Under the pieces are notes generated by a model, which saw only the letters and a program-made list of their open reading frames with translations, was not told the origin of the DNA and made no database searches. Shown piece after piece: positions 2,148 to 13,197 of a stretch of DNA of 14,445 nucleotides; position 1 is the stretch's first letter; each line of letters starts with the position of its first letter. The translations under genes were made by a program, and so were the position numbers. Where the stretch lies: the IMG/VR virus record IMGVR_UViG_2529292722_000020. One strand, 5' to 3'. Source of the DNA: a virus. Lineage: Duplodnaviria; Heunggongvirae; Uroviricota; Caudoviricetes.

Positions 2148-3027
2148 CGTGTTCACCCTCACGAACTTTCAGGTAGGTATTATCGTTAAGCAGGAAATCA
2201 AATCCCTTTTTGTGCCAGACGGTTCCTCGCTGATGGTTTGGGCGCTCTTCGAACATCCATCGGCAATTTTCGCCTACGTATCTCAAATAATTTCTCCAGT
2301 CCTGCATCGTGAACCCATGCCCGTCAAGCTGGCGGGTTATCACTCCGGCTTTGCGCCAGAACGTTCGGATCTGGTTTTTACGCTTGTCATTCAGTGCGCG
2401 GATTCTTGGCGCTTCAGGAAGGATTTCGTGGTAAGCATCGACAACATCCTGACAGCTAACGGAAGGTTTTTTCTTGTCAGACTTTTTGTCTGCTGTGGCA
2501 CTCTCTAATACGTCAGTATTAGAGATATTATTTATATTATTGTTTATGGACAACCGTTGGACAACCGTTGGACAATCTCCGCTGAGAGCCTCGCCATTAC
2601 TGGTGTTTGCGTTGGACAACCGTTGGACAACCGTTGGACAATTTTTTGCCTGAAAATCGTCATATTTAACGATTGTAAACAGGCTAAATTTCTTCCCCAT
2701 CGAGCAAATATTAAGCATCCCTTTCGACTCAAAAGTCCGTAATAAGCTCCGAACTTTGTTGTCGGGGATGAATGTTTCTCTGACCAGCGACGGGCGTCCA
2801 GTTATCATCTGACCGCGATCAACAGTTATCGGCCCGATATCCGTATTGACGACAGTAGATTCGTGATTAGCCTTGAGGATTAAGTGAAGCCAAAGATGTA
2901 CTGCCTGAGAGTCCTTATAGAGCCTGCTGTCCATAAACTGGCGGTGTATATAGGCATACCCCATACTGGATGCCTCCTGATGTTGTACAGGGTTATGCCT
3001 GTAATCAGCTAACTTAACGACGCCCAT
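2137..3027 (-). CDS. Replication initiator, lambda O / P22 gene 18-like, with origin iterons inside the coding sequence
   Basis: Position immediately upstream of and overlapping the helicase gene; the iterons encode a repeated CPTVVQRLSN peptide, as lambda ori does within O. Confidence 0.8.
   Translation of the reverse strand: MGVVKLADYRHNPVQHQEASSMGYAYIHRQFMDSRLYKDSQAVHLWLHLILKANHESTVVNTDIGPITVDRGQMITGRPSLVRETFIPDNKVRSLLRTFESKGMLNICSMGKKFSLFTIVKYDDFQAKNCPTVVQRLSNANTSNGEALSGDCPTVVQRLSINNNINNISNTDVLESATADKKSDKKKPSVSCQDVVDAYHEILPEAPRIRALNDKRKNQIRTFWRKAGVITRQLDGHGFTMQDWRNYLRYVGENCRWMFEERPNHQRGTVWHKKGFDFLLNDNTYLKVREGEHDDR
2546..2644. repeat. Replication origin iterons: two clusters of three 11-bp direct repeats (TTGGACAACCG), flanked by an AT-rich tract at 2505-2545
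   Basis: Direct reading: clusters at 2546-2578 and 2612-2644, separated by about 33 bp. The AT-rich block taatacgtcagtattagagatattatttatattattgtttat lies on the side expected for a lambda-type ori. Confidence 0.65.
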
Positions 3028-3175
3028 GTTTCACTCCTGCTTTGGCTAGTCTGTAAACACCAACAAGGCGCTCTGCGAACGCCCTGTTATTTGCTGCGGC
3101 TACCACTAATCCCTCAGGTGAATCAGGGTGTCGAATCTCTTCTTTTTCCTGGTATTTCTTACGACGTTTTGTCAT
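3014..3175 (-). CDS. Small basic protein (53 aa, MTKRRKKYQEKEEIRHPDSPEGLVVAAANNRAFAERLVGVYRLAKAGVKHGRR) between cII-like and O-like genes
   Basis: ATG at 3175-3173 sits 5 nt behind an AGGAG Shine-Dalgarno; the stop at 3016-3014 overlaps the O start by 14 nt. Found by manual translation. Confidence 0.35.
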   Translation of the reverse strand: MTKRRKKYQEKEEIRHPDSPEGLVVAAANNRAFAERLVGVYRLAKAGVKHGRR

Positions 3176-3885: not shown

Positions 3886-4536
3886 ATGAATACACAACTG
3901 ATGGGTGAGCGTATTCGCGCTCGCAGAAAAGAACTCAAGATTAGGCAGGCTGCCCTTGGCAAGATGGTTGGCGTGTCTAATGTTGCTATTTCCCAATGGG
4001 AGCGATCTGAAACTGAGCCCAATGGCGAAAACCTATTGGCCTTAGCCAAGGCTTTGCAGTGCTCCCCTGATTACCTGTTGAAAGGAGAGGATAGTCTTTC
4101 AAACATTGCCTATCACAGCAGGCATGATCCAAGAGGTTCGTATCCTCTAATTAGTTGGGTAAGCGCAGGATGTTGGATGGAAGCTGTAGAGCCATATCAT
4201 AGGCGTGCAATAGATAACTGGTACGACACAACGGTAGATTGTTCTGAAGACTCTTTTTGGCTCGACGTTAAAGGCGATTCAATGACTGCCCCGGCAGGAC
4301 TGAGTATTCCTGAGGGGATGATTATTCTCGTCGACCCAGAAGTCGAACCACGTAATGGAAAGCTGGTAGTCGCCAAACTTGAAGGGGAAAACGAGGCGAC
4401 ATTCAAAAAGTTAGTTATTGATGCCGGTAGAAAATTCCTGAAACCACTCAATCCACAATACCCAATGATTGAAATCAATGGGAACTGTAAAATCATTGGC
4501 GTTGTCGTTGATGCCAAGCTAGCAAACCTTCCTTAA
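3886..4536 (+). CDS. c2: Phage repressor, P22 c2 type (N-terminal HTH domain plus C-terminal LexA/S24-like autocleavage domain)
   Basis: 216 aa; N-terminus MNTQLMGERIRARRKELKIRQAALGKMVGVSNVAISQWERSETEPNGENLLALAKALQCSPDYLLKG matches remembered P22 c2; the C-terminal half has the GDSM...K serine-lysine dyad pattern. Confidence 0.9.
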   Translation: MNTQLMGERIRARRKELKIRQAALGKMVGVSNVAISQWERSETEPNGENLLALAKALQCSPDYLLKGEDSLSNIAYHSRHDPRGSYPLISWVSAGCWMEAVEPYHRRAIDNWYDTTVDCSEDSFWLDVKGDSMTAPAGLSIPEGMIILVDPEVEPRNGKLVVAKLEGENEATFKKLVIDAGRKFLKPLNPQYPMIEINGNCKIIGVVVDAKLANLP

Positions 4537-4556
4537 GGGGCTTTCGCCCCTTTTTT
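4537..4556 (+). terminator. Intrinsic terminator after the repressor gene
   Basis: GGGGC-TTTC-GCCCC hairpin followed by TTTTTT, immediately after the TAA at 4534-4536. Confidence 0.7.
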
Positions 4557-4599
4557 ATTTCCCGTTAAAAATCAAAGACAAACTAAATTCACGCCCATA

Positions 4600-4656
4600 A
4601 AATTAAGTTTTCTTCAAAAATGCACTTGACCAATAAATTAAGAAGTCTTAAATTTA
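4600..4656 (+). promoter_or_regulatory. PL promoter with overlapping OL operators
   Basis: -35 TTGACC (4626-4631), 17-bp spacer, -10 TAAATT (4649-4654); palindrome ATTAAGAAGTCTTAAAT (4637-4653) overlaps the promoter, with a degenerate second site near 4603-4616. Confidence 0.5.
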
Positions 4657-4699
4657 AGCCATCAGCAGGACGCTGGAAGCCAAACGGAACAGATTGGCA

Positions 4700-4740
4700 G
4701 GCTCTTTAACATCGACGGACTCTCAACCTAACCGTTGAGA
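4700..4740 (+). promoter_or_regulatory. Candidate nutL: boxA (GGCTCTTTAAC) plus boxB hairpin (7-bp stem, CUAACC loop)
   Basis: GCTCTTTAAC at 4701-4710 matches the boxA consensus; hairpin TCTCAAC-CTAACC-GTTGAGA at 4721-4740 has no following U-run, so it is not a terminator. Lies between PL and the N-like gene. Confidence 0.5.
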
Positions 4741-4850
4741 CCAGAACTTGAGTGGTTTTGGGGATGGCGCGAATTGCAGCTGCAAGACAGCGATCGAGAA
4801 GATAAGCACCTCGACGCGTCATGCGCCAAAGCCACTTAAAGGAGACCATC

Positions 4851-5156
4851 ATGGTAACCATTGTCTGGAAAGAATCCAAAGGTACGGCAAAAAGCCGCTA
4901 CAAAGCTCGCAGAGCAGAACTTATTGCCGAGCGACGCAGTAATGAAGCACTGGCGCGAAAAATTGCGCTAAAGCTCTCTGGTTGCGTCAGAGCAGACAAA
5001 GCAGCATCACTAGGAAGCCTTTGCTGCAAGAAGAAAGAAGAAGTCGTTCGAAAAAATAGAAGTATTTATTACAAAGATTCAAACCCGTTAGGAAACAAAA
5101 TTCATGCAGTCCAAAAAATAAAATTGTACAGTAAACTACCGTACGGTGCTTATTGA
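4851..5156 (+). CDS. N: N-like transcription antiterminator with arginine-rich motif (phage 21 N type)
   Basis: ATG at 4851 sits 7 nt after AAGGAG; the N-terminal GTAKSRYKARRAELIAERR matches the arginine-rich boxB-binding peptide I recall for phage 21 N; first gene downstream of PL and nutL. The track's upstream start at 4821 has no Shine-Dalgarno. Confidence 0.7.
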   Translation: MVTIVWKESKGTAKSRYKARRAELIAERRSNEALARKIALKLSGCVRADKAASLGSLCCKKKEEVVRKNRSIYYKDSNPLGNKIHAVQKIKLYSKLPYGAY

Positions 5157-5158
5157 GT

Positions 5159-5497
5159 ATGCTTATGGTGAAAAAGACTATTTATGTTAATCCTGACCGC
5201 GGACAAAACAGAAAAGTATCTGATAGAGGTCTTACATCTCGAGACAGGAGGAGAATAGCGAGATGGGAAAAAAGGATAGCATATGCATTAAAAAACGGTG
5301 TAACACCTGGATTTAATGCTATAGATGACGGTCCTGAATATAAAATTAATGAAGAACCAATGGACAAAGTTGACAAAGCATTAGCAACACCATTTCCTCG
5401 CGATGTCGAAAAAATTGAAGATGAAAAATATGAGGATGTAATGCACAGAGTTGTTAATCACGCTCACCAACGAAATCCAAATAAAAAATGGTCATAG
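5159..5497 (+). CDS. Hypothetical charged protein (about 112 aa), AT-rich accessory gene
   Basis: ORF immediately after N, followed directly by an intrinsic terminator. Start uncertain (TTG 5153, ATG 5159 or ATG 5165); no family recognised. Confidence 0.45.
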   Translation: MLMVKKTIYVNPDRGQNRKVSDRGLTSRDRRRIARWEKRIAYALKNGVTPGFNAIDDGPEYKINEEPMDKVDKALATPFPRDVEKIEDEKYEDVMHRVVNHAHQRNPNKKWS

Positions 5498-5517
5498 CCC
5501 ACTTCGGTGGGTTTTTT
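5498..5517 (+). terminator. Intrinsic terminator
   Basis: CCCAC-TTCG-GTGGG hairpin followed by TTTTTT, starting one base after the TAG stop. Confidence 0.7.
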
Positions 5518-5630
5518 ATTGTCTGAACAAATCTAATTTACTACCGCAAGCCACGCAGTGAAATGGGTGTGACTTGTGTTGGTCGCCAGAAAATGAAATT
5601 AGGCAGCAAACCACTTATTTGAGGTGAGAT

Positions 5631-6101
5631 ATGACAAAATCATGGAGCGTACCTTTTCCTGAATCAGAAACTGAACATGATGGAATGCCTGTTTTCTGGA
5701 GATTCCAGGCGACAGTTGAAGAAGATGGGATAAAAATATTCGCACTTCAATATATAGCTTTTCATCAGACAGAGCATTATGCATGGTTGGTTCCTGCGCA
5801 TTGGATTGTTGATTTTAAACCAGCACCAAATCAGTGGTTACAGGAATGGAAACAAAAGAGAAATAGATATGCAATTAAGAAAGTAGCAAAAAATGCAGAA
5901 AGATCTTTTGCATTCCCAACGAAGAAACTTGCCATTGAAAGTTTATTGCGCCGGAAGAAATACCATTTAATGAGAATCAAACAAGATTTGGCTGTTGTAT
6001 CAACTCTTGTTGATGGGATGAAGAATATTGATACATCAACACCAGATATTGAATATAACTTTGGGCACAACCAAGAAACAGAAAATTGGGTATTTTATTA
6101 G
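5631..6101 (+). CDS. Hypothetical protein (156 aa), AT-rich moron gene
   Basis: GAGGTGAG Shine-Dalgarno 5 nt before ATG 5631; lies between two intrinsic terminators; no family recognised. Confidence 0.55.
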   Translation: MTKSWSVPFPESETEHDGMPVFWRFQATVEEDGIKIFALQYIAFHQTEHYAWLVPAHWIVDFKPAPNQWLQEWKQKRNRYAIKKVAKNAERSFAFPTKKLAIESLLRRKKYHLMRIKQDLAVVSTLVDGMKNIDTSTPDIEYNFGHNQETENWVFY

Positions 6102-6206
6102 TACGAGTAAGCACTGTGTATTCATTCCAACGAGTGAATACACGGAGCAATGTCGCTCGTAACTAAACAGGAGCCGACTTGTTCTGATTATTGGAAATCT
6201 TCTTTG

Positions 6207-6229
6207 CCCTCCGATGTGGGGGGCTTTTT
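6207..6229 (+). terminator. Intrinsic terminator closing the moron unit
   Basis: CCCTCC-GATGT-GGGGGG hairpin (one G-U pair) followed by CTTTTTA. Confidence 0.5.
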
Positions 6230-6295
6230 ATATGCATACCAATAACGCTTCACTCGAGGCGTTTTCGTTATGCAATCAAACAGAAGGAGCATCCT

Positions 6296-6466
6296 ATGCA
6301 ACAGTTCGCTATTGCAGGGGCGGCATCGGTTCGCCCTTTCAACCCGATTTTATCGGTACAGCATTCACGAAAAAATATTTTAACCGGAGCAGACTTTAAA
6401 CAACCAAGAATGAAAAGCTTGCTCGAAAAGCTTTGGGATATTTTGAAACAACAAGGCCGTCCATGA
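6296..6466 (+). CDS. CIII-like protein (putative FtsH inhibitor), 56 aa
   Basis: AAGGAG Shine-Dalgarno 8 nt before ATG 6296; MQQFAIAG...SLLEKLWDILKQQGRP resembles lambda CIII (MQYAIAG...SLLERITRKLRDGWKRLIDILNQPGVP). The longer overlapping ORFs in the track are rejected. Confidence 0.5.
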   Translation: MQQFAIAGAASVRPFNPILSVQHSRKNILTGADFKQPRMKSLLEKLWDILKQQGRP

Positions 6467-6621
6467 GTTTTACAGATAACTGGTCAGACGAAGAATTCAT
6501 TCGTCAGATGAAAGAATTAATCGGTAACGAAGGAGATATTCATGTCACTTGCAACCACAGTGAAGGAGAGCAAGTTACAGAGACGCATGTACACGCAGAA
6601 AGCTCTCTGGTATCGCCATAA
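6463..6621 (+). CDS. Small acidic protein (52 aa) in the kil position
   Basis: ATG 6463 overlaps the cIII-like stop (ATGA). Assigned by position only. Confidence 0.3.
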   Translation: MSFTDNWSDEEFIRQMKELIGNEGDIHVTCNHSEGEQVTETHVHAESSLVSP

Positions 6622-6720
6622 TGGCGACCGCGAAGGAATGCGGGTATGCCTTAATTTGTCCCGAGTCGAAGTATTAAATCAGCGTTATTTCCTTGGGCCG
6701 TGTCCATTCTGAGGTGAATT

Positions 6721-7428: not shown

Positions 7429-7896
7429 ATGTCTCACTTGGACGGAATTATTAAAAGATTCGAGTCCAGCTACAAAGTTAATGAAACAACAGGTTGCTGG
7501 GAGTCTACCTATTCAAAAAACAAAGGAGGATACACAAAATTTGTAGCCTTTGGCGTAACAATGCTTTCTCATCGGGTTGCTTTTGAGCTTTATCACTCCC
7601 CCATTCCATCTGGGAAGATGGTTTGCCACAAATGCGATAACCCATGCTGCGTTAATCCTGAACATCTCTTTTTAGGTAGCGCGCAAGAAAACATGGACGA
7701 CAAGATAGCAAAAGGAAGGCATCGTGGAGCCAAGAAAGGTCATGCTCATCATGGTGCAAAATTAACAGAGTGGCAGGGTATAGAAATTAGGAAAAGACTC
7801 TCTGAAAAAGAGAGTCAGTACAAGATAGCAAAAGACATGGGTGTATCTCAATCAATTATAAGCAACATAAAAACTGGCAAGAGGTGGAGCAAATGA
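7429..7896 (+). CDS. HNH homing-type endonuclease with C-terminal HTH
   Basis: HNH motif [26 protein letters not shown]; start abuts the SSAP stop (TAAATG); the end overlaps the SSB start. Confidence 0.8.
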
Positions 7897-12467: not shown

Positions 12468-12668
12468 ATGCAACACGAACTACAGCCTGATTCACTGGTT
12501 GATTTGAAATTCATCATGGCCGATACTGGCTTTGGTAAAACCTTCATCTACGACCGGATTAAGTCCGGCGACCTGCCAAAAGCCAAAGTTATCCACGGGC
12601 GAGCAAGATGGTTATATCGTGACCATTGTGAATTCAAAAATAAGCTCTTAAGCCGCGCCAATGGGTAA
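12468..12668 (+). CDS. AlpA/Xis-family excisionase-like DNA-binding protein
   Basis: 66 aa with winged-helix pattern ...MADTGFGKTFIYDRIKSGDLPKAKVIHGRARWLYRDHCEF...; sits at the integration-proximal end of the prophage. Confidence 0.7.
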   Translation: MQHELQPDSLVDLKFIMADTGFGKTFIYDRIKSGDLPKAKVIHGRARWLYRDHCEFKNKLLSRANG

Positions 12669-12741
12669 AATAGCGGGTAAAATATTTCTCACATCTAAAA
12701 AACACCATTCTAATCAATCCCCTGCCGCGTCAAGTAGATGT

Positions 12742-12756
12742 CTGCAGGGGACACCA
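12742..12756 (+). other. 3'-terminal fragment of tRNA-Arg argW (acceptor 3' strand plus CCA); host side of the attachment junction
   Basis: CTGCAGGGGACACCA matches the argW 3' end as I recall it; it is the direct continuation of the fragment at 12433-12448. Confidence 0.55.
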
Positions 12757-13197
12757 GATACCCTTCAAACGAAATCTACCTTCACCCCGTAAAAGATGGG
12801 TTTGGCAGCACACTTGCCTTATATCTACTCATTTTTACTGCAACAGGTTGAAATCTCAGCACTGTCAGAAAGCGCTGATGACTAAACAGCCCTGGGCCGG
12901 GCGATGTAACCATCACACAGAATCCTGATAGCGAAATATGGCGTGACTCGATACTTCACTCCGCAATGCATTCCTTGATGAATTCGCAGGACCGTGATAC
13001 ACGGGACAGGTCACTGAATGACGACAATGTCCTGGAAATCAGCGAACCGCGCATCTGAAGTACATTTGAGCGACTGTACCAGAACATGAATGAGGCGTTT
13101 GGATTAGGCGATTATTAGCAGGGCTAAGCATTTTACTATTATTATTTTCCGGTTGAGGGATATAGAGCTATCGACAACAACCGGAAAAAGTTTACGT

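What the first reader, a model, noticed from the sequence alone, without database searches (positions are those of the whole stretch)
5159..6229. AT-rich two-gene moron between the N-like gene and cIII, bracketed by intrinsic terminators
Two ORFs of unrecognised family (about 112 aa, highly charged; 156 aa, Trp/His-rich) sit where lambdoid phages carry ral, sieB and other exclusion or anti-defence cargo. By eye the region is markedly AT-rich compared with the flanking phage genes. It is insulated by terminators at 5498-5517 and 6207-6229, with an extra U-less hairpin at 6116-6143, and the second gene has a strong Shine-Dalgarno. This is the architecture of an independently expressed accessory unit and the best candidate here for an undescribed exclusion, defence or anti-defence function.
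Basis: partly seen in the sequence, partly recalled or inferred. Interest (0 to 1): 0.65.

Follow-up and report, generated by a model that had tools for sequence, protein, structure and literature searches.

The report
Nun exclusion gene plus unknown neighbour
The AT-rich stretch holds two separately mobile phage cargo genes: the first is the well-studied Nun protein, which lets a dormant virus block infection by phage lambda, and the second is a widespread early phage gene (HK97 gp45) whose function is still unknown.

Summary

- **ORF1 is a known protein.** It is phage HK022 Nun (110/112 identical; 107/109 to PDB 6ALG chain N), the textbook lambda-exclusion and transcription-arrest factor. 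The resident nut sites are phage-21 type, so the prophage should escape its own Nun.
- **ORF2 is known but uncharacterised.** It is HK97 gp45 / 933W L0079 (PHROG 1636) and occurs in 598 of 5426 complete E. coli genomes. It has no Pfam, NCBIfam, PADLOC or PDB relative. A confident model (pLDDT 94.7) matches no solved structure and resembles only uncharacterised phage proteins.
- **The pair is not one unit.**
  - Each gene occurs without the other: HK022 and mEp235 have nun only; HK97 and 933W have ORF2 only.
  - nun arrived with an AT-rich N-like tail inserted into the 3' end of a phage-21 N gene, leaving a relic of the old N end at 5530-5622.
  - The right-hand hairpin and terminator are conserved pL-operon backbone, identical to lambda's sequence downstream of ral.
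  - ORF2 has no detectable promoter, so it most likely acts early in lytic growth.

The parts
4626..4654 (+). pL-like promoter (TTGACC-17-TAAATT) downstream of the repressor gene and its terminator (4535-4552)
   Evidence: The repressor at 3886-4536 is 100% identical to the repressor of phage DE3, which my own knowledge says carries the phage-21 immunity region.
4701..4740 (+). nutL: boxA GCTCTTTAACA (4701-4711) and boxB hairpin 4721-4740 (loop CUAACC), phage-21 type and not lambda type
   Evidence: mEp235 annotates a boxA at the same place. The window holds no lambda-type boxB beyond chance level. nutR on the minus strand, 3613-3572, has boxB UUCACCUCUAACCGGGUGAG.
4851..5156 (+). Hybrid N antiterminator gene. 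Residues 1-57 are identical to phage-21 N (DE3). The C-terminal third comes from the nun-linked AT-rich tail.
   Evidence: identical over the first 57 residues, diverged thereafter; 77/96 overall. PHROG 271 E 4.6e-31. 100% identical to mEp235 N over 100 of 101 residues.
5039..5156 (+). Left part of the nun cassette: an AT-rich (31% GC) N-like tail that travels with nun. By homology to HK022 it should hold the prophage promoter(s) of nun.
   Evidence: The HK022 match starts at 5039. The 120 bp upstream of nun are 116/120 identical to HK022, where the same tail is a decayed remnant. The King et al. 2000 title is cited.
5159..5497 (+). nun: HK022 Nun transcription-arrest / lambda-exclusion factor (probable start 5165)
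   Evidence: PDB 6ALG_N 107/109 identical, E 8e-71. The 1HJI arginine-rich peptide is 26/26 identical. PHROG 5632 E 8.5e-71. Only S11R and D63E differ from HK022. dN/dS is 0.08-0.14.
5496..5519 (+). Intrinsic terminator of the nun cassette; it overlaps the nun stop codon
   Evidence: HK022 has a hairpin at the same place in which one stem pair differs on both sides yet still pairs (A-U vs G-C). The hairpin is destroyed in PA28.
5530..5622 (+). Non-coding relic of the original phage-21 N 3' end (reads NLIYYRKPRSEMGVTCVGRQKMKLGSKPLI*). It contains the 55-bp junction sequence 5569-5623, which is invariant in five phages.
   Evidence: (233 phage records).
5631..6101 (+). ORF2 = HK97 gp45 / 933W L0079 family, 156 aa, function unknown. 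The cassette spans about 5624-6109.
   Evidence: PHROG 1636 E 1.4e-111. 83 phage records. 598 E. coli genomes. Junctions. AlphaFold2 pLDDT 94.7. No PDB fold match.
6111..6148 (+). U-less 14-bp hairpin, part of the conserved pL-operon backbone and not of the cargo
   Evidence: dG -21.7, z -7.3. Identical in lambda (between ral and ea10), HK97 and mEp235. IS903 of HK022 is inserted in it.
6206..6229 (+). Intrinsic terminator of the backbone (the lambda terminator downstream of ral; annotated 'putative terminator' in HK97)
6244..6270 (+). Second, weaker terminator-like hairpin just upstream of cIII; shared with HK97 and mEp235 but absent from lambda
6296..6466 (+). cIII
   Evidence: PHROG 550 E 1e-22.

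Best explanation
The region is a stack of two unrelated single-gene cargo cassettes in the accessory hotspot of the leftward early (pL) operon. The host element is an imm21-type lambdoid prophage of E. coli ETEC-2264.

Cassette A (about 5039-5529) carries an N-like tail, nun and its own terminator.
- Shown: the protein is HK022 Nun with two conservative substitutions, both outside the RNA-binding arginine-rich motif and outside the C-terminal arrest segment.
- From the literature: in an HK022 lysogen Nun is made constitutively at low level. It binds the boxB hairpin of lambda nut RNA through its arginine-rich motif and displaces N. With NusA, B, E and G it wedges its C-terminal segment into RNA polymerase and blocks translocation. 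Mfd then releases the arrested complex, and the superinfecting lambda is excluded.
- Inferred: the same happens here, and the resident phage is spared because its nutL and nutR boxB hairpins are phage-21 type.

Cassette B (about 5624-6109) is ORF2, the HK97 gp45 / 933W L0079 family.
- Shown: it is a soluble 18.6-kDa protein with a confidently predicted fold that matches no solved structure. A long twisted three-stranded beta-meander is followed by short helices and a 33-residue amphipathic helix. The centre is strongly basic (net +11) and the tails are acidic. It has no promoter of its own. In HK97 and 933W it is co-transcribed with N.
- Inferred, low confidence: it is an early lytic protein that binds nucleic acid or a host protein and serves host takeover or anti-defence. 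It is probably not a prophage-expressed defence gene.

The downstream hairpin and terminator belong to the operon backbone. N-modified polymerase reads through both terminators after induction.
For: Nun identity. Mechanism: PMC5386594 and PMC4496710.

Self-immunity: the repressor is 100% identical and the N-terminal 57 residues of N are identical to DE3, which my own knowledge says carries the phage-21 immunity region. There is no lambda boxB.

Purifying selection on nun: dN/dS 0.08-0.14.

Independence of the cassettes:
- HK022 has nun, its terminator and an IS903 in the backbone hairpin, and no ORF2.
- mEp235 has N, nun and a different 208-aa gene.
- HK97 and 933W have N followed by ORF2.
- Tandem stacks occur with Nmad5 or ral.
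- Phage records: nun 30, ORF2 83, both about 14.
- E. coli genomes: nun 221, ORF2 598, adjacent 138.
- ORF2 DNA differs at 4/468 sites between the window and PA28, while the adjacent nun differs at 21/336.

N relic and junctions. Backbone identity to lambda.

ORF2 features. No promoter. Fold relatives only in uncharacterised phage proteins, some from phages I believe are virulent. Distant homologues lie in prophage early regions with no conserved partner gene.
Against: No experiment exists on this prophage. Lambda exclusion, nun expression and ORF2 expression are all inferred.
- The nun promoter is not detectable by consensus scan, and the primary paper could not be read.
- The prophage has an IS100 in its nin region and may be defective, though that would not stop nun expression.
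- nun and ORF2 are adjacent in 62% of nun-bearing genomes, far above random expectation. A functional link is therefore not strictly excluded, although clonal sampling and physical linkage explain it more simply.
- ORF2's proposed role rests on position, expression logic and charge pattern only. No homologue has a known function, and no nucleic-acid-binding or enzymatic motif was recognised.
Confidence: 0.75

Rival explanations
1. One insulated two-gene moron, expressed on its own, encodes a previously undescribed exclusion, defence or anti-defence pair.
For: AT-rich cargo bracketed by terminators. The two genes are adjacent in 138 E. coli genomes and in PA28-type Stx1 phages. In PA28 the terminator between them is destroyed, so they would be co-transcribed there.
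Against: ORF1 is the described Nun protein. Each gene occurs alone in viable phages: HK022, mEp235, mEpX1 and HK75 against HK97, 933W and H-19B. A relic of the N 3' end separates the two. Other cassettes can sit between them. The right terminator is lambda backbone. HK022 Nun excludes lambda without ORF2 (literature).
Confidence: 0.05
2. ORF2 is a prophage-expressed defence or superinfection-exclusion gene, like SieB or Nun. It would be expressed in the lysogen by read-through from the nun promoter or from an unrecognised promoter.
For: It sits in the slot that holds sieB in lambda and a superinfection-exclusion gene (annotated gp17) in PA28. It is AT-rich like classical morons. It is frequent in E. 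coli prophages. Loss of the nun terminator in PA28 would allow read-through.
Against: No promoter-like site upstream, even at a relaxed threshold. In HK97 and 933W it lies directly behind N inside the repressed pL operon. No transmembrane segment: maximum hydropathy 0.56. No PADLOC family. Fold relatives occur in phages I believe are virulent, where a prophage defence role makes no sense.
Confidence: 0.15
3. ORF2 is an accessory factor for the phage's own early programme. It could be a small nucleic-acid-binding modulator of transcription, recombination or replication, rather than a factor aimed at host immunity.
Confidence: 0.2
4. ORF2 is a decaying or selfish filler ORF with no function, carried along by recombination at conserved junctions.
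For: Only 4 substitutions separate the copies compared, too few for a dN/dS test. No annotation exists anywhere.
Against: Full-length homologues at 55-85% identity exist across the Enterobacterales genera named by their sources (Pectobacterium, Cronobacter, Brenneria, Rosenbergiella), with 40 invariant residues. A distant family of 86 representatives exists. Co-variation in that family is strong enough to give a pLDDT 94.7 model. The Shine-Dalgarno is strong.
Confidence: 0.03

Closest known systems
Phage HK022 Nun (transcription-arrest / lambda-exclusion factor; PDB 6ALG, 1HJI)
   Same: 110/112 residues identical. The arginine-rich motif is identical and so is the C-terminal arrest segment (H98, K106, K107, W108). 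A terminator hairpin follows the stop codon. The 120 bp upstream are 97% identical.
   Different: Here nun sits behind a functional-looking N gene of phage-21 specificity, as in mEp235, mEpX1 and PA28. HK022 instead has only a decayed N remnant and, according to the literature read, needs no phage-encoded antitermination protein because RNA elements modify the polymerase directly. Substitutions are S11R and D63E. The exclusion phenotype is untested in this strain.
HK97 gp45 / 933W L0079 / H-19B ORF (PHROG 1636)
   Same: 98-99% protein identity. Same orientation, same upstream junction and same downstream hairpin and terminator.
   Different: In HK97 and 933W it directly follows N with no terminator, which implies immediate-early expression. 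Here nun and its terminator intervene. No function is known for any member.
Lambda sieB-orf28-ral segment and the terminator cluster downstream of ral
   Same: Same slot between N and cIII. The 120 bp after the cargo (hairpin plus terminator) are about 100% identical to lambda.
   Different: No sequence or family similarity between ORF2 and Ral or SieB. ral and ORF2 can co-occur in tandem, as in phi367. Equating this backbone with lambda's 'tL2' cluster rests on my memory of Luk and Szybalski 1983, not on a tool result.
Moron concept (Juhala et al. 2000; Cumby et al. 2012, PMC3594210)
   Same: Extra DNA relative to sister phages and deviant GC. For nun there is also its own terminator and literature-documented prophage promoters.
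   Different: ORF2 lacks a detectable promoter and a private terminator. The two genes are separate insertions rather than one moron.

Membership tests
HK022 Nun family (PHROG 5632) | Full-length sequence match to HK022 Nun | tested here: met
   107/109 identical to 6ALG_N, E 8e-71. 110/112 identical to the HK022 genome copy. PHROG 5632 E 8.5e-71 over 1-112.
HK022 Nun family (PHROG 5632) | N-terminal arginine-rich motif that binds lambda boxB RNA | tested here: met
   26/26 identity to the Nun peptide solved in complex with boxB (1HJI_B). RNA binding itself was not assayed.
HK022 Nun family (PHROG 5632) | C-terminal arrest determinants (H98, K106, K107, W108 in the 109-residue numbering) | tested here: met
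   The C-terminal 46 residues are identical. The importance of these residues comes from PMC5386594.
HK022 Nun family (PHROG 5632) | Constitutive expression from the repressed prophage | not testable with these tools
   The upstream 120 bp are 116/120 identical to HK022. No consensus promoter was found. The primary paper is not held; its title is cited.
HK022 Nun family (PHROG 5632) | Excludes lambda (lambda-type nut) but spares the resident phage | not testable with these tools
   Supporting sequence evidence only: the resident boxB hairpins are 21-type and the window holds no lambda boxB.
Moron (promoter-gene-terminator insertion expressed from the prophage) | Extra DNA absent from closely related phages | tested here: met
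   Met for nun and ORF2 separately, not for the pair as one block.
Moron (promoter-gene-terminator insertion expressed from the prophage) | Base composition different from the flanks | tested here: met
   Cassette A 36.4% GC and cassette B 36.2% GC, against 46.2% for the rest of the prophage. The relic between them is 41.8%.
Moron (promoter-gene-terminator insertion expressed from the prophage) | Own promoter | tested here: inconclusive
   nun: none found by scan, but promoters are documented in HK022. ORF2: none at 8 or more of 12 matches in 5498-5635, and none in HK97.
Moron (promoter-gene-terminator insertion expressed from the prophage) | Own terminator | tested here: inconclusive
   nun: yes, with one stem pair changed on both sides yet still paired relative to HK022. 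ORF2: the downstream terminator is shared lambda backbone, not cassette-specific.
HK97 gp45 family (PHROG 1636) | Full-length profile match | tested here: met
   E 1.4e-111 over 1-156 of 156. 98% identical to HK97 Gp45. The family has no assigned function.
Known anti-phage defence proteins (PADLOC-DB) | Match to any defence-system model | tested here: not met
   Nun: no hit. ORF2: only a chance-level Cas1 fragment, E 0.01, 13 bits.
Lambda Ral / SieB (usual occupants of the slot) | Sequence-family match; for SieB also membrane segments | tested here: not met
   No Ral or SieB PHROG or Pfam hit. Maximum 19-residue hydropathy is 0.56.
AP2 / integrase-arm-type or GIY-YIG domains (considered for ORF2) | Profile or fold match | tested here: not met

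The most novel reading that the evidence does not exclude
ORF2 (HK97 gp45 / 933W L0079) would be the founding member of a structurally new and widespread superfamily of early phage proteins (PHROGs 1636, 13631, 25384, 28215). The family occurs in temperate phages and, by fold, apparently in virulent ones. In this reading it neutralises a host immune system or retargets a host nucleic-acid machine such as RNA polymerase at the very start of infection. Its near-identical DNA across otherwise diverged lambdoid and Shiga-toxin phages would reflect a recent selective sweep.
Probability: 0.25. Interest if true: 0.6.

Novelty: already known. Interest (0 to 1): 0.3.

Why it matters
For annotation:
- Nun, a mechanistically famous protein, is invisible to Pfam, NCBIfam and PGAP.
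- It is mis-called in RefSeq: 45 aa in PA28 and 'hypothetical' in E. coli genomes.
- Yet it is present, and under purifying selection in the copies compared (window, HK022, PA28), in about 4% of complete E. coli genomes, including Stx1a phages of EHEC.
- Its only known activity is lambda exclusion, so this breadth, inside N-dependent phages of other nut specificities, invites the question of which phages it really targets in nature.

For discovery:
- ORF2 is in 11% of complete E. coli genomes and in the prototype Stx2 phage 933W.
- It has a confident model that matches no solved structure and no known function.
- It is expressed, by inference, at the earliest stage of infection.
- That makes it a cheap and well-defined candidate for anti-defence or host-takeover screens. 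This window adds nothing beyond what HK97 and 933W already offer.

Tried and rejected
1. Known RNA element in the non-coding parts. Rfam gave nothing at gathering threshold and only a chance snoRNA hit at E 0.67.
2. Prophage anti-sRNAs (AgvB/AsxR type). Those lie downstream of pR', not here. The Pas sRNA paper does not mention this locus.
3. ORF2 as an AP2, integrase-arm or GIY-YIG domain. The idea came from the R-F-A-F-x-T...A...L..RK strand-helix motif and a 1zg2 hit at E 0.62. Searches do not support it.
5. Domain fusions. P0062, P0051 and P0080 are repetitive or chance matches.
6. Conserved partner genes of distant homologues. None found.
7. Literature on HK97 gp45, L0079, WP_000167581 and early-left-operon accessory genes. 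Nothing functional.
8. My first reading of the 55-bp invariant 'linker' as a stand-alone boundary element. It is in fact the 3' end of a phage-21-type N gene.
9. HK022 having lost ORF2 through IS903. Rejected: the flanks of IS903 overlap by 9 bp, which indicates a simple insertion into the backbone hairpin with no ORF2 footprint.
10. Nun being a diverged N. No detectable similarity to N21.
11. The first structure model, from the shallow alignment, was poor (pLDDT 60). The AFDB Foldseek library was unavailable.
Full report
**Source and setting.** The window is 100% identical to E. coli ETEC-2264 (NZ_CP023349, 2647456-2661900) and to two other genomes. It is the early region of a lambdoid prophage next to the csc sucrose genes. 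The pL operon runs on the + strand in this order:
- a repressor (3886-4536) and its terminator;
- a pL-like promoter (4626-4654) and nutL;
- N (4851-5156);
- ORF1 (5159-5497) and ORF2 (5631-6101);
- cIII (6296-6466);
- recombination genes.

The repressor is 100% identical to the repressor of phage DE3, and the first 57 residues of N are identical to DE3's N. That DE3 carries the phage-21 immunity region is my own knowledge; one search adds only that the junction sequence lies under the antiterminator gene of a 'Lambda h434 imm21' record.

**Checking the observation.**
- ORF1 has 112 codons and 37% charged residues. ORF2 has 156 codons, 7 Trp and 6 His, and a GAGGTGA Shine-Dalgarno.
- GC is 38.2% over 5159-6229 against 46.2% for the rest of the prophage. 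GC3 is 0.24 and 0.28 against 0.35-0.54 in 15 other genes. The lowest-GC window of that length starts at 5028.
- Terminators at 5496-5517 and 6206-6229 fold at -10.3 and -13.9 kcal/mol, with z about -3. The U-less hairpin at 6111-6148 folds at -21.7 kcal/mol, z -7.3.

**ORF1 is Nun.**
- A search of solved structures gives PDB 6ALG chain N, 'Transcription termination factor nun', 107/109 identical, E 8e-71.
- The 26-residue Nun peptide solved on boxB RNA (1HJI) is 26/26 identical.
- PHROG 5632, 'Nun-like transcription termination factor', matches end to end.
- Against the HK022 genome copy only S11R and D63E differ. Both lie outside the arginine-rich motif and outside the C-terminal arrest segment.
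- Pfam and NCBIfam have no model, and PGAP calls it 'hypothetical'. That explains why it looked unknown.

**How Nun works (from papers read here).**
- It binds boxB of lambda nut RNA through its arginine-rich motif and competes with N.
- With the Nus factors it blocks RNA polymerase translocation through its C-terminal segment, which sits inside the elongation complex.
- Mfd releases the arrested complex.
- The concentration in HK022 lysogens is about 100 nM, and overproduction is toxic.
- No role other than lambda exclusion is known (PMC5386594; PMC4496710).

**Self-immunity.** The resident nut sites are not lambda-type. The nutL boxB at 4721-4740 has loop CUAACC, and the nutR boxB reads UUCACCUCUAACCGGGUGAG. 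The window holds no lambda boxB beyond a chance-level non-hairpin match. Self-exclusion is therefore not expected. That Nun spares phage-21 nut is my recollection of Robert et al. 1987, not a tool result.

**Selection on nun.** nun is under purifying selection: dN/dS is 0.08 against HK022 and 0.14 against the PA28 copy. The PA28 copy is intact at 112 aa, although RefSeq annotates only 45 aa.

**Anatomy of the nun insertion.**
- The HK022 match to the window runs from 5039 to 5514. It includes the last third of the N reading frame.
- That segment is 31% GC. In HK022 it exists as a decayed N-like remnant upstream of nun.
- Downstream of nun's terminator, 5530-5622 still reads NLIYYRKPRSEMGVTCVGRQKMKLGSKPLI-stop, which is the C-terminus of phage-21 N.
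- So nun arrived together with an alternative N tail and was spliced into the 3' end of a 21-type N gene, leaving the old end as a relic.
- The 55 bp at 5569-5623 are invariant in the five phages aligned and present in 233 phage records. They lie inside N in imm21-type phages, and just after the N stop codon in HK97 and 933W.
- nun's terminator hairpin differs from HK022's at one stem pair on both sides yet still pairs (A-U vs G-C). It is destroyed in PA28.

**ORF2.**
- It is 98-99% identical to HK97 Gp45, 933W L0079 and an unannotated H-19B ORF. It occurs in 83 phage records and in 598 of 5426 complete E. coli genomes. It is annotated 'hypothetical' everywhere.
- There is no Pfam, NCBIfam or meaningful PADLOC hit, and PDB sequence and profile searches find nothing.
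- Full-length homologues at 55-85% identity come from the Enterobacterales genera that their sources name (Pectobacterium, Cronobacter, Brenneria, Rosenbergiella) and from unnamed metagenome contigs; they share 40 invariant residues.
- An exhaustive profile search finds 86 representatives of a 130-165-aa family. These fall in PHROGs 13631, 25384 and 28215, all of unknown function.
- With this deeper alignment AlphaFold2 gives pLDDT 94.7 and pTM 0.81. The fold has strands 19-30, 33-46 and 50-55, two short helices, strand 83-86, a helix at 98-130 and an ordered C-terminal tail. The shallow alignment gave only pLDDT 60.
- Foldseek against viral models finds 13 hits at E below 1e-3, all uncharacterised. 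They include Erwinia phiEa2809, Achromobacter phiAxp-3 and Delftia RG-2014, which I believe are virulent phages (my own knowledge).
- The protein is soluble (maximum hydropathy 0.56). Its centre is basic (net +11 over residues 61-130) and its tails are acidic. Family-wide conserved residues are R24, G33, E/Q46, T47, K83, K87, A101, R108 and K109.
- Distant homologues lie among small early genes of prophages near HNH, methylase, SSB, exonuclease, RecE or integrase genes, with no constant partner.

**One unit or two?** Two.
- HK022 has nun and its terminator, then about 30 bp, then the backbone hairpin. IS903 is inserted in that hairpin. The IS903 flanks overlap by 9 bp (window 6122-6130), which matches the 9-bp target duplication I recall IS903 making. 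There is no ORF2.
- mEp235 shares 4540-5623 at 99%, then carries a different 208-aa gene, and rejoins at 6110. In UPEC_U013 a gene of the same length, annotated as Nmad5 family, sits between nun and ORF2; that it is the same gene as mEp235's was not checked.
- HK97 and 933W have N followed by ORF2, with no nun and no terminator between them.
- phi367 has N, two small ORFs, ral and then ORF2.
- PA28 has N, nun, ORF2 and an extra gene annotated as superinfection exclusion (gp17).
- Counts in phage records: nun 30, ORF2 83, both about 14. Counts in genomes: nun 221, ORF2 598, adjacent 138.
- Between the window and PA28, ORF2 DNA differs at 4/468 sites while the adjacent nun differs at 21/336. The two segments therefore have different histories, and ORF2 looks recently spread.

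**The right-hand 'bracket'.** Window 6111-6229, the hairpin plus terminator, is about 100% identical to lambda's own sequence between ral and ea10, and to HK97 and mEp235. It is operon backbone that stays put whatever cargo lies upstream. I recall this lambda region as the tL2 terminator cluster (Luk and Szybalski 1983, from memory).

**Expression logic.**
- Documented in the literature: HK022 nun is constitutively expressed by the repressed prophage from its own promoters (title of King, Madsen and Weisberg 2000, cited; the paper itself is not held).
- Shown here: the 120 bp upstream of nun are 116/120 identical to HK022.
- Inferred: the same expression applies here, with termination at 5517.
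- For ORF2, no promoter-like site exists between 5498 and 5635, even at 8 of 12 matches, and none exists in HK97.
- ORF2 should therefore be made only from pL. That means delayed-early expression here, after N-mediated read-through of nun's terminator, and immediate-early expression in HK97 and 933W.
- Together with the fold relatives in apparently virulent phages, this favours a role during lytic growth over a prophage defence role. It is an inference, not a demonstration.

**Comparison with known systems, and verdict.**
- nun is a member of the Nun family on every feature testable from sequence. The phenotype is untested.
- The nun cassette fits the moron definition of deviant GC, own promoter and own terminator (PMC3594210).
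- ORF2 meets only the 'extra DNA' and 'deviant GC' criteria.
- Everything in 5159-6229 already exists at 98-100% identity in sequenced and annotated phages: mEp235 for N and nun, HK97 for gp45, and PA28 for the whole arrangement.
- The finding is therefore real but already known. Its first half is fully explained. Its second half is a long-standing 'hypothetical protein' that remains a reasonable target for functional screens.

Noticed in passing
window 4851-5156 and 5530-5622: The N gene is a hybrid. The first 57 residues are identical to phage-21 N, and the C-terminal (presumably RNA polymerase-binding) third comes from an AT-rich tail that travels with nun. The displaced original N 3' end survives as a non-coding relic after nun's terminator. 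The same hybrid N occurs in the plaque-forming phage mEp235, so it is presumably functional.
   Followed up: yes
L005 (HK022 NC_002166) 6070-6276, minus strand: HK022, described in the paper I read as needing no phage-encoded antitermination protein, carries a decayed N-like remnant directly upstream of nun. It is 57% identical to residues 22-101 of the window's N and has stop codons upstream.
   Followed up: partly
window 6111-6148; L005 4602-5658: The 14-bp U-less hairpin is 100% conserved between lambda, HK97, mEp235 and this prophage, and its function is unknown. HK022's IS903 is inserted inside it; the flanking sequences overlap by 9 bp (window 6122-6130), which looks like a target-site duplication.
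   Followed up: partly
L003 (PA28 NC_041935) 1996-2334: RefSeq annotates only a 45-aa 'Nun-like' fragment, but the full 112-codon nun ORF is intact (93% identical, dN/dS 0.14). Nun is therefore present in PA28-type and many Stx1a-converting phages of EHEC. In that lineage nun's terminator hairpin is destroyed.
   Followed up: yes
L014 (UPEC_U013) 1976-2599; L002 (mEp235) 2535-3158: Another cassette used in the same slot is a 208-aa gene. In UPEC_U013 it is annotated as an Nmad5-family putative nucleotide-modification protein and sits between nun and ORF2. mEp235 has a 'hypothetical' gene of the same length there; I did not compare the two sequences.
   Followed up: no
window 5631-6101 versus 5159-5497: ORF2 DNA is almost invariant (4/468 differences) between phages whose adjacent nun genes differ at 21/336 sites. 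This suggests a recent horizontal spread of the ORF2 cassette across lambdoid and Stx phages.
   Followed up: partly
window 7429-7896: An HNH endonuclease gene is wedged between the Rad52-like annealing-protein gene and ssb, with abutting or overlapping start and stop codons. mEp235 lacks it at the same junction. It is likely a mobile homing-type insertion.
   Followed up: no
L004 1421-3222 (just left of window position 1) and window 12468-13197: An IS100 (IS21-family) element interrupts the nin region of the prophage. At the other end a TorI-type excisionase gene is followed by about 530 bp and then cscB, with no integrase at this end. The prophage may be defective, or it may be of the KplE1 type with the integrase at the far end.
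   Followed up: no
window 6433-6712: Between cIII and the Rad52-like gene PGAP annotates nothing, but two overlapping small ORFs (62 and 56 aa) lie where related phages annotate kil. I did not examine them.
   Followed up: no
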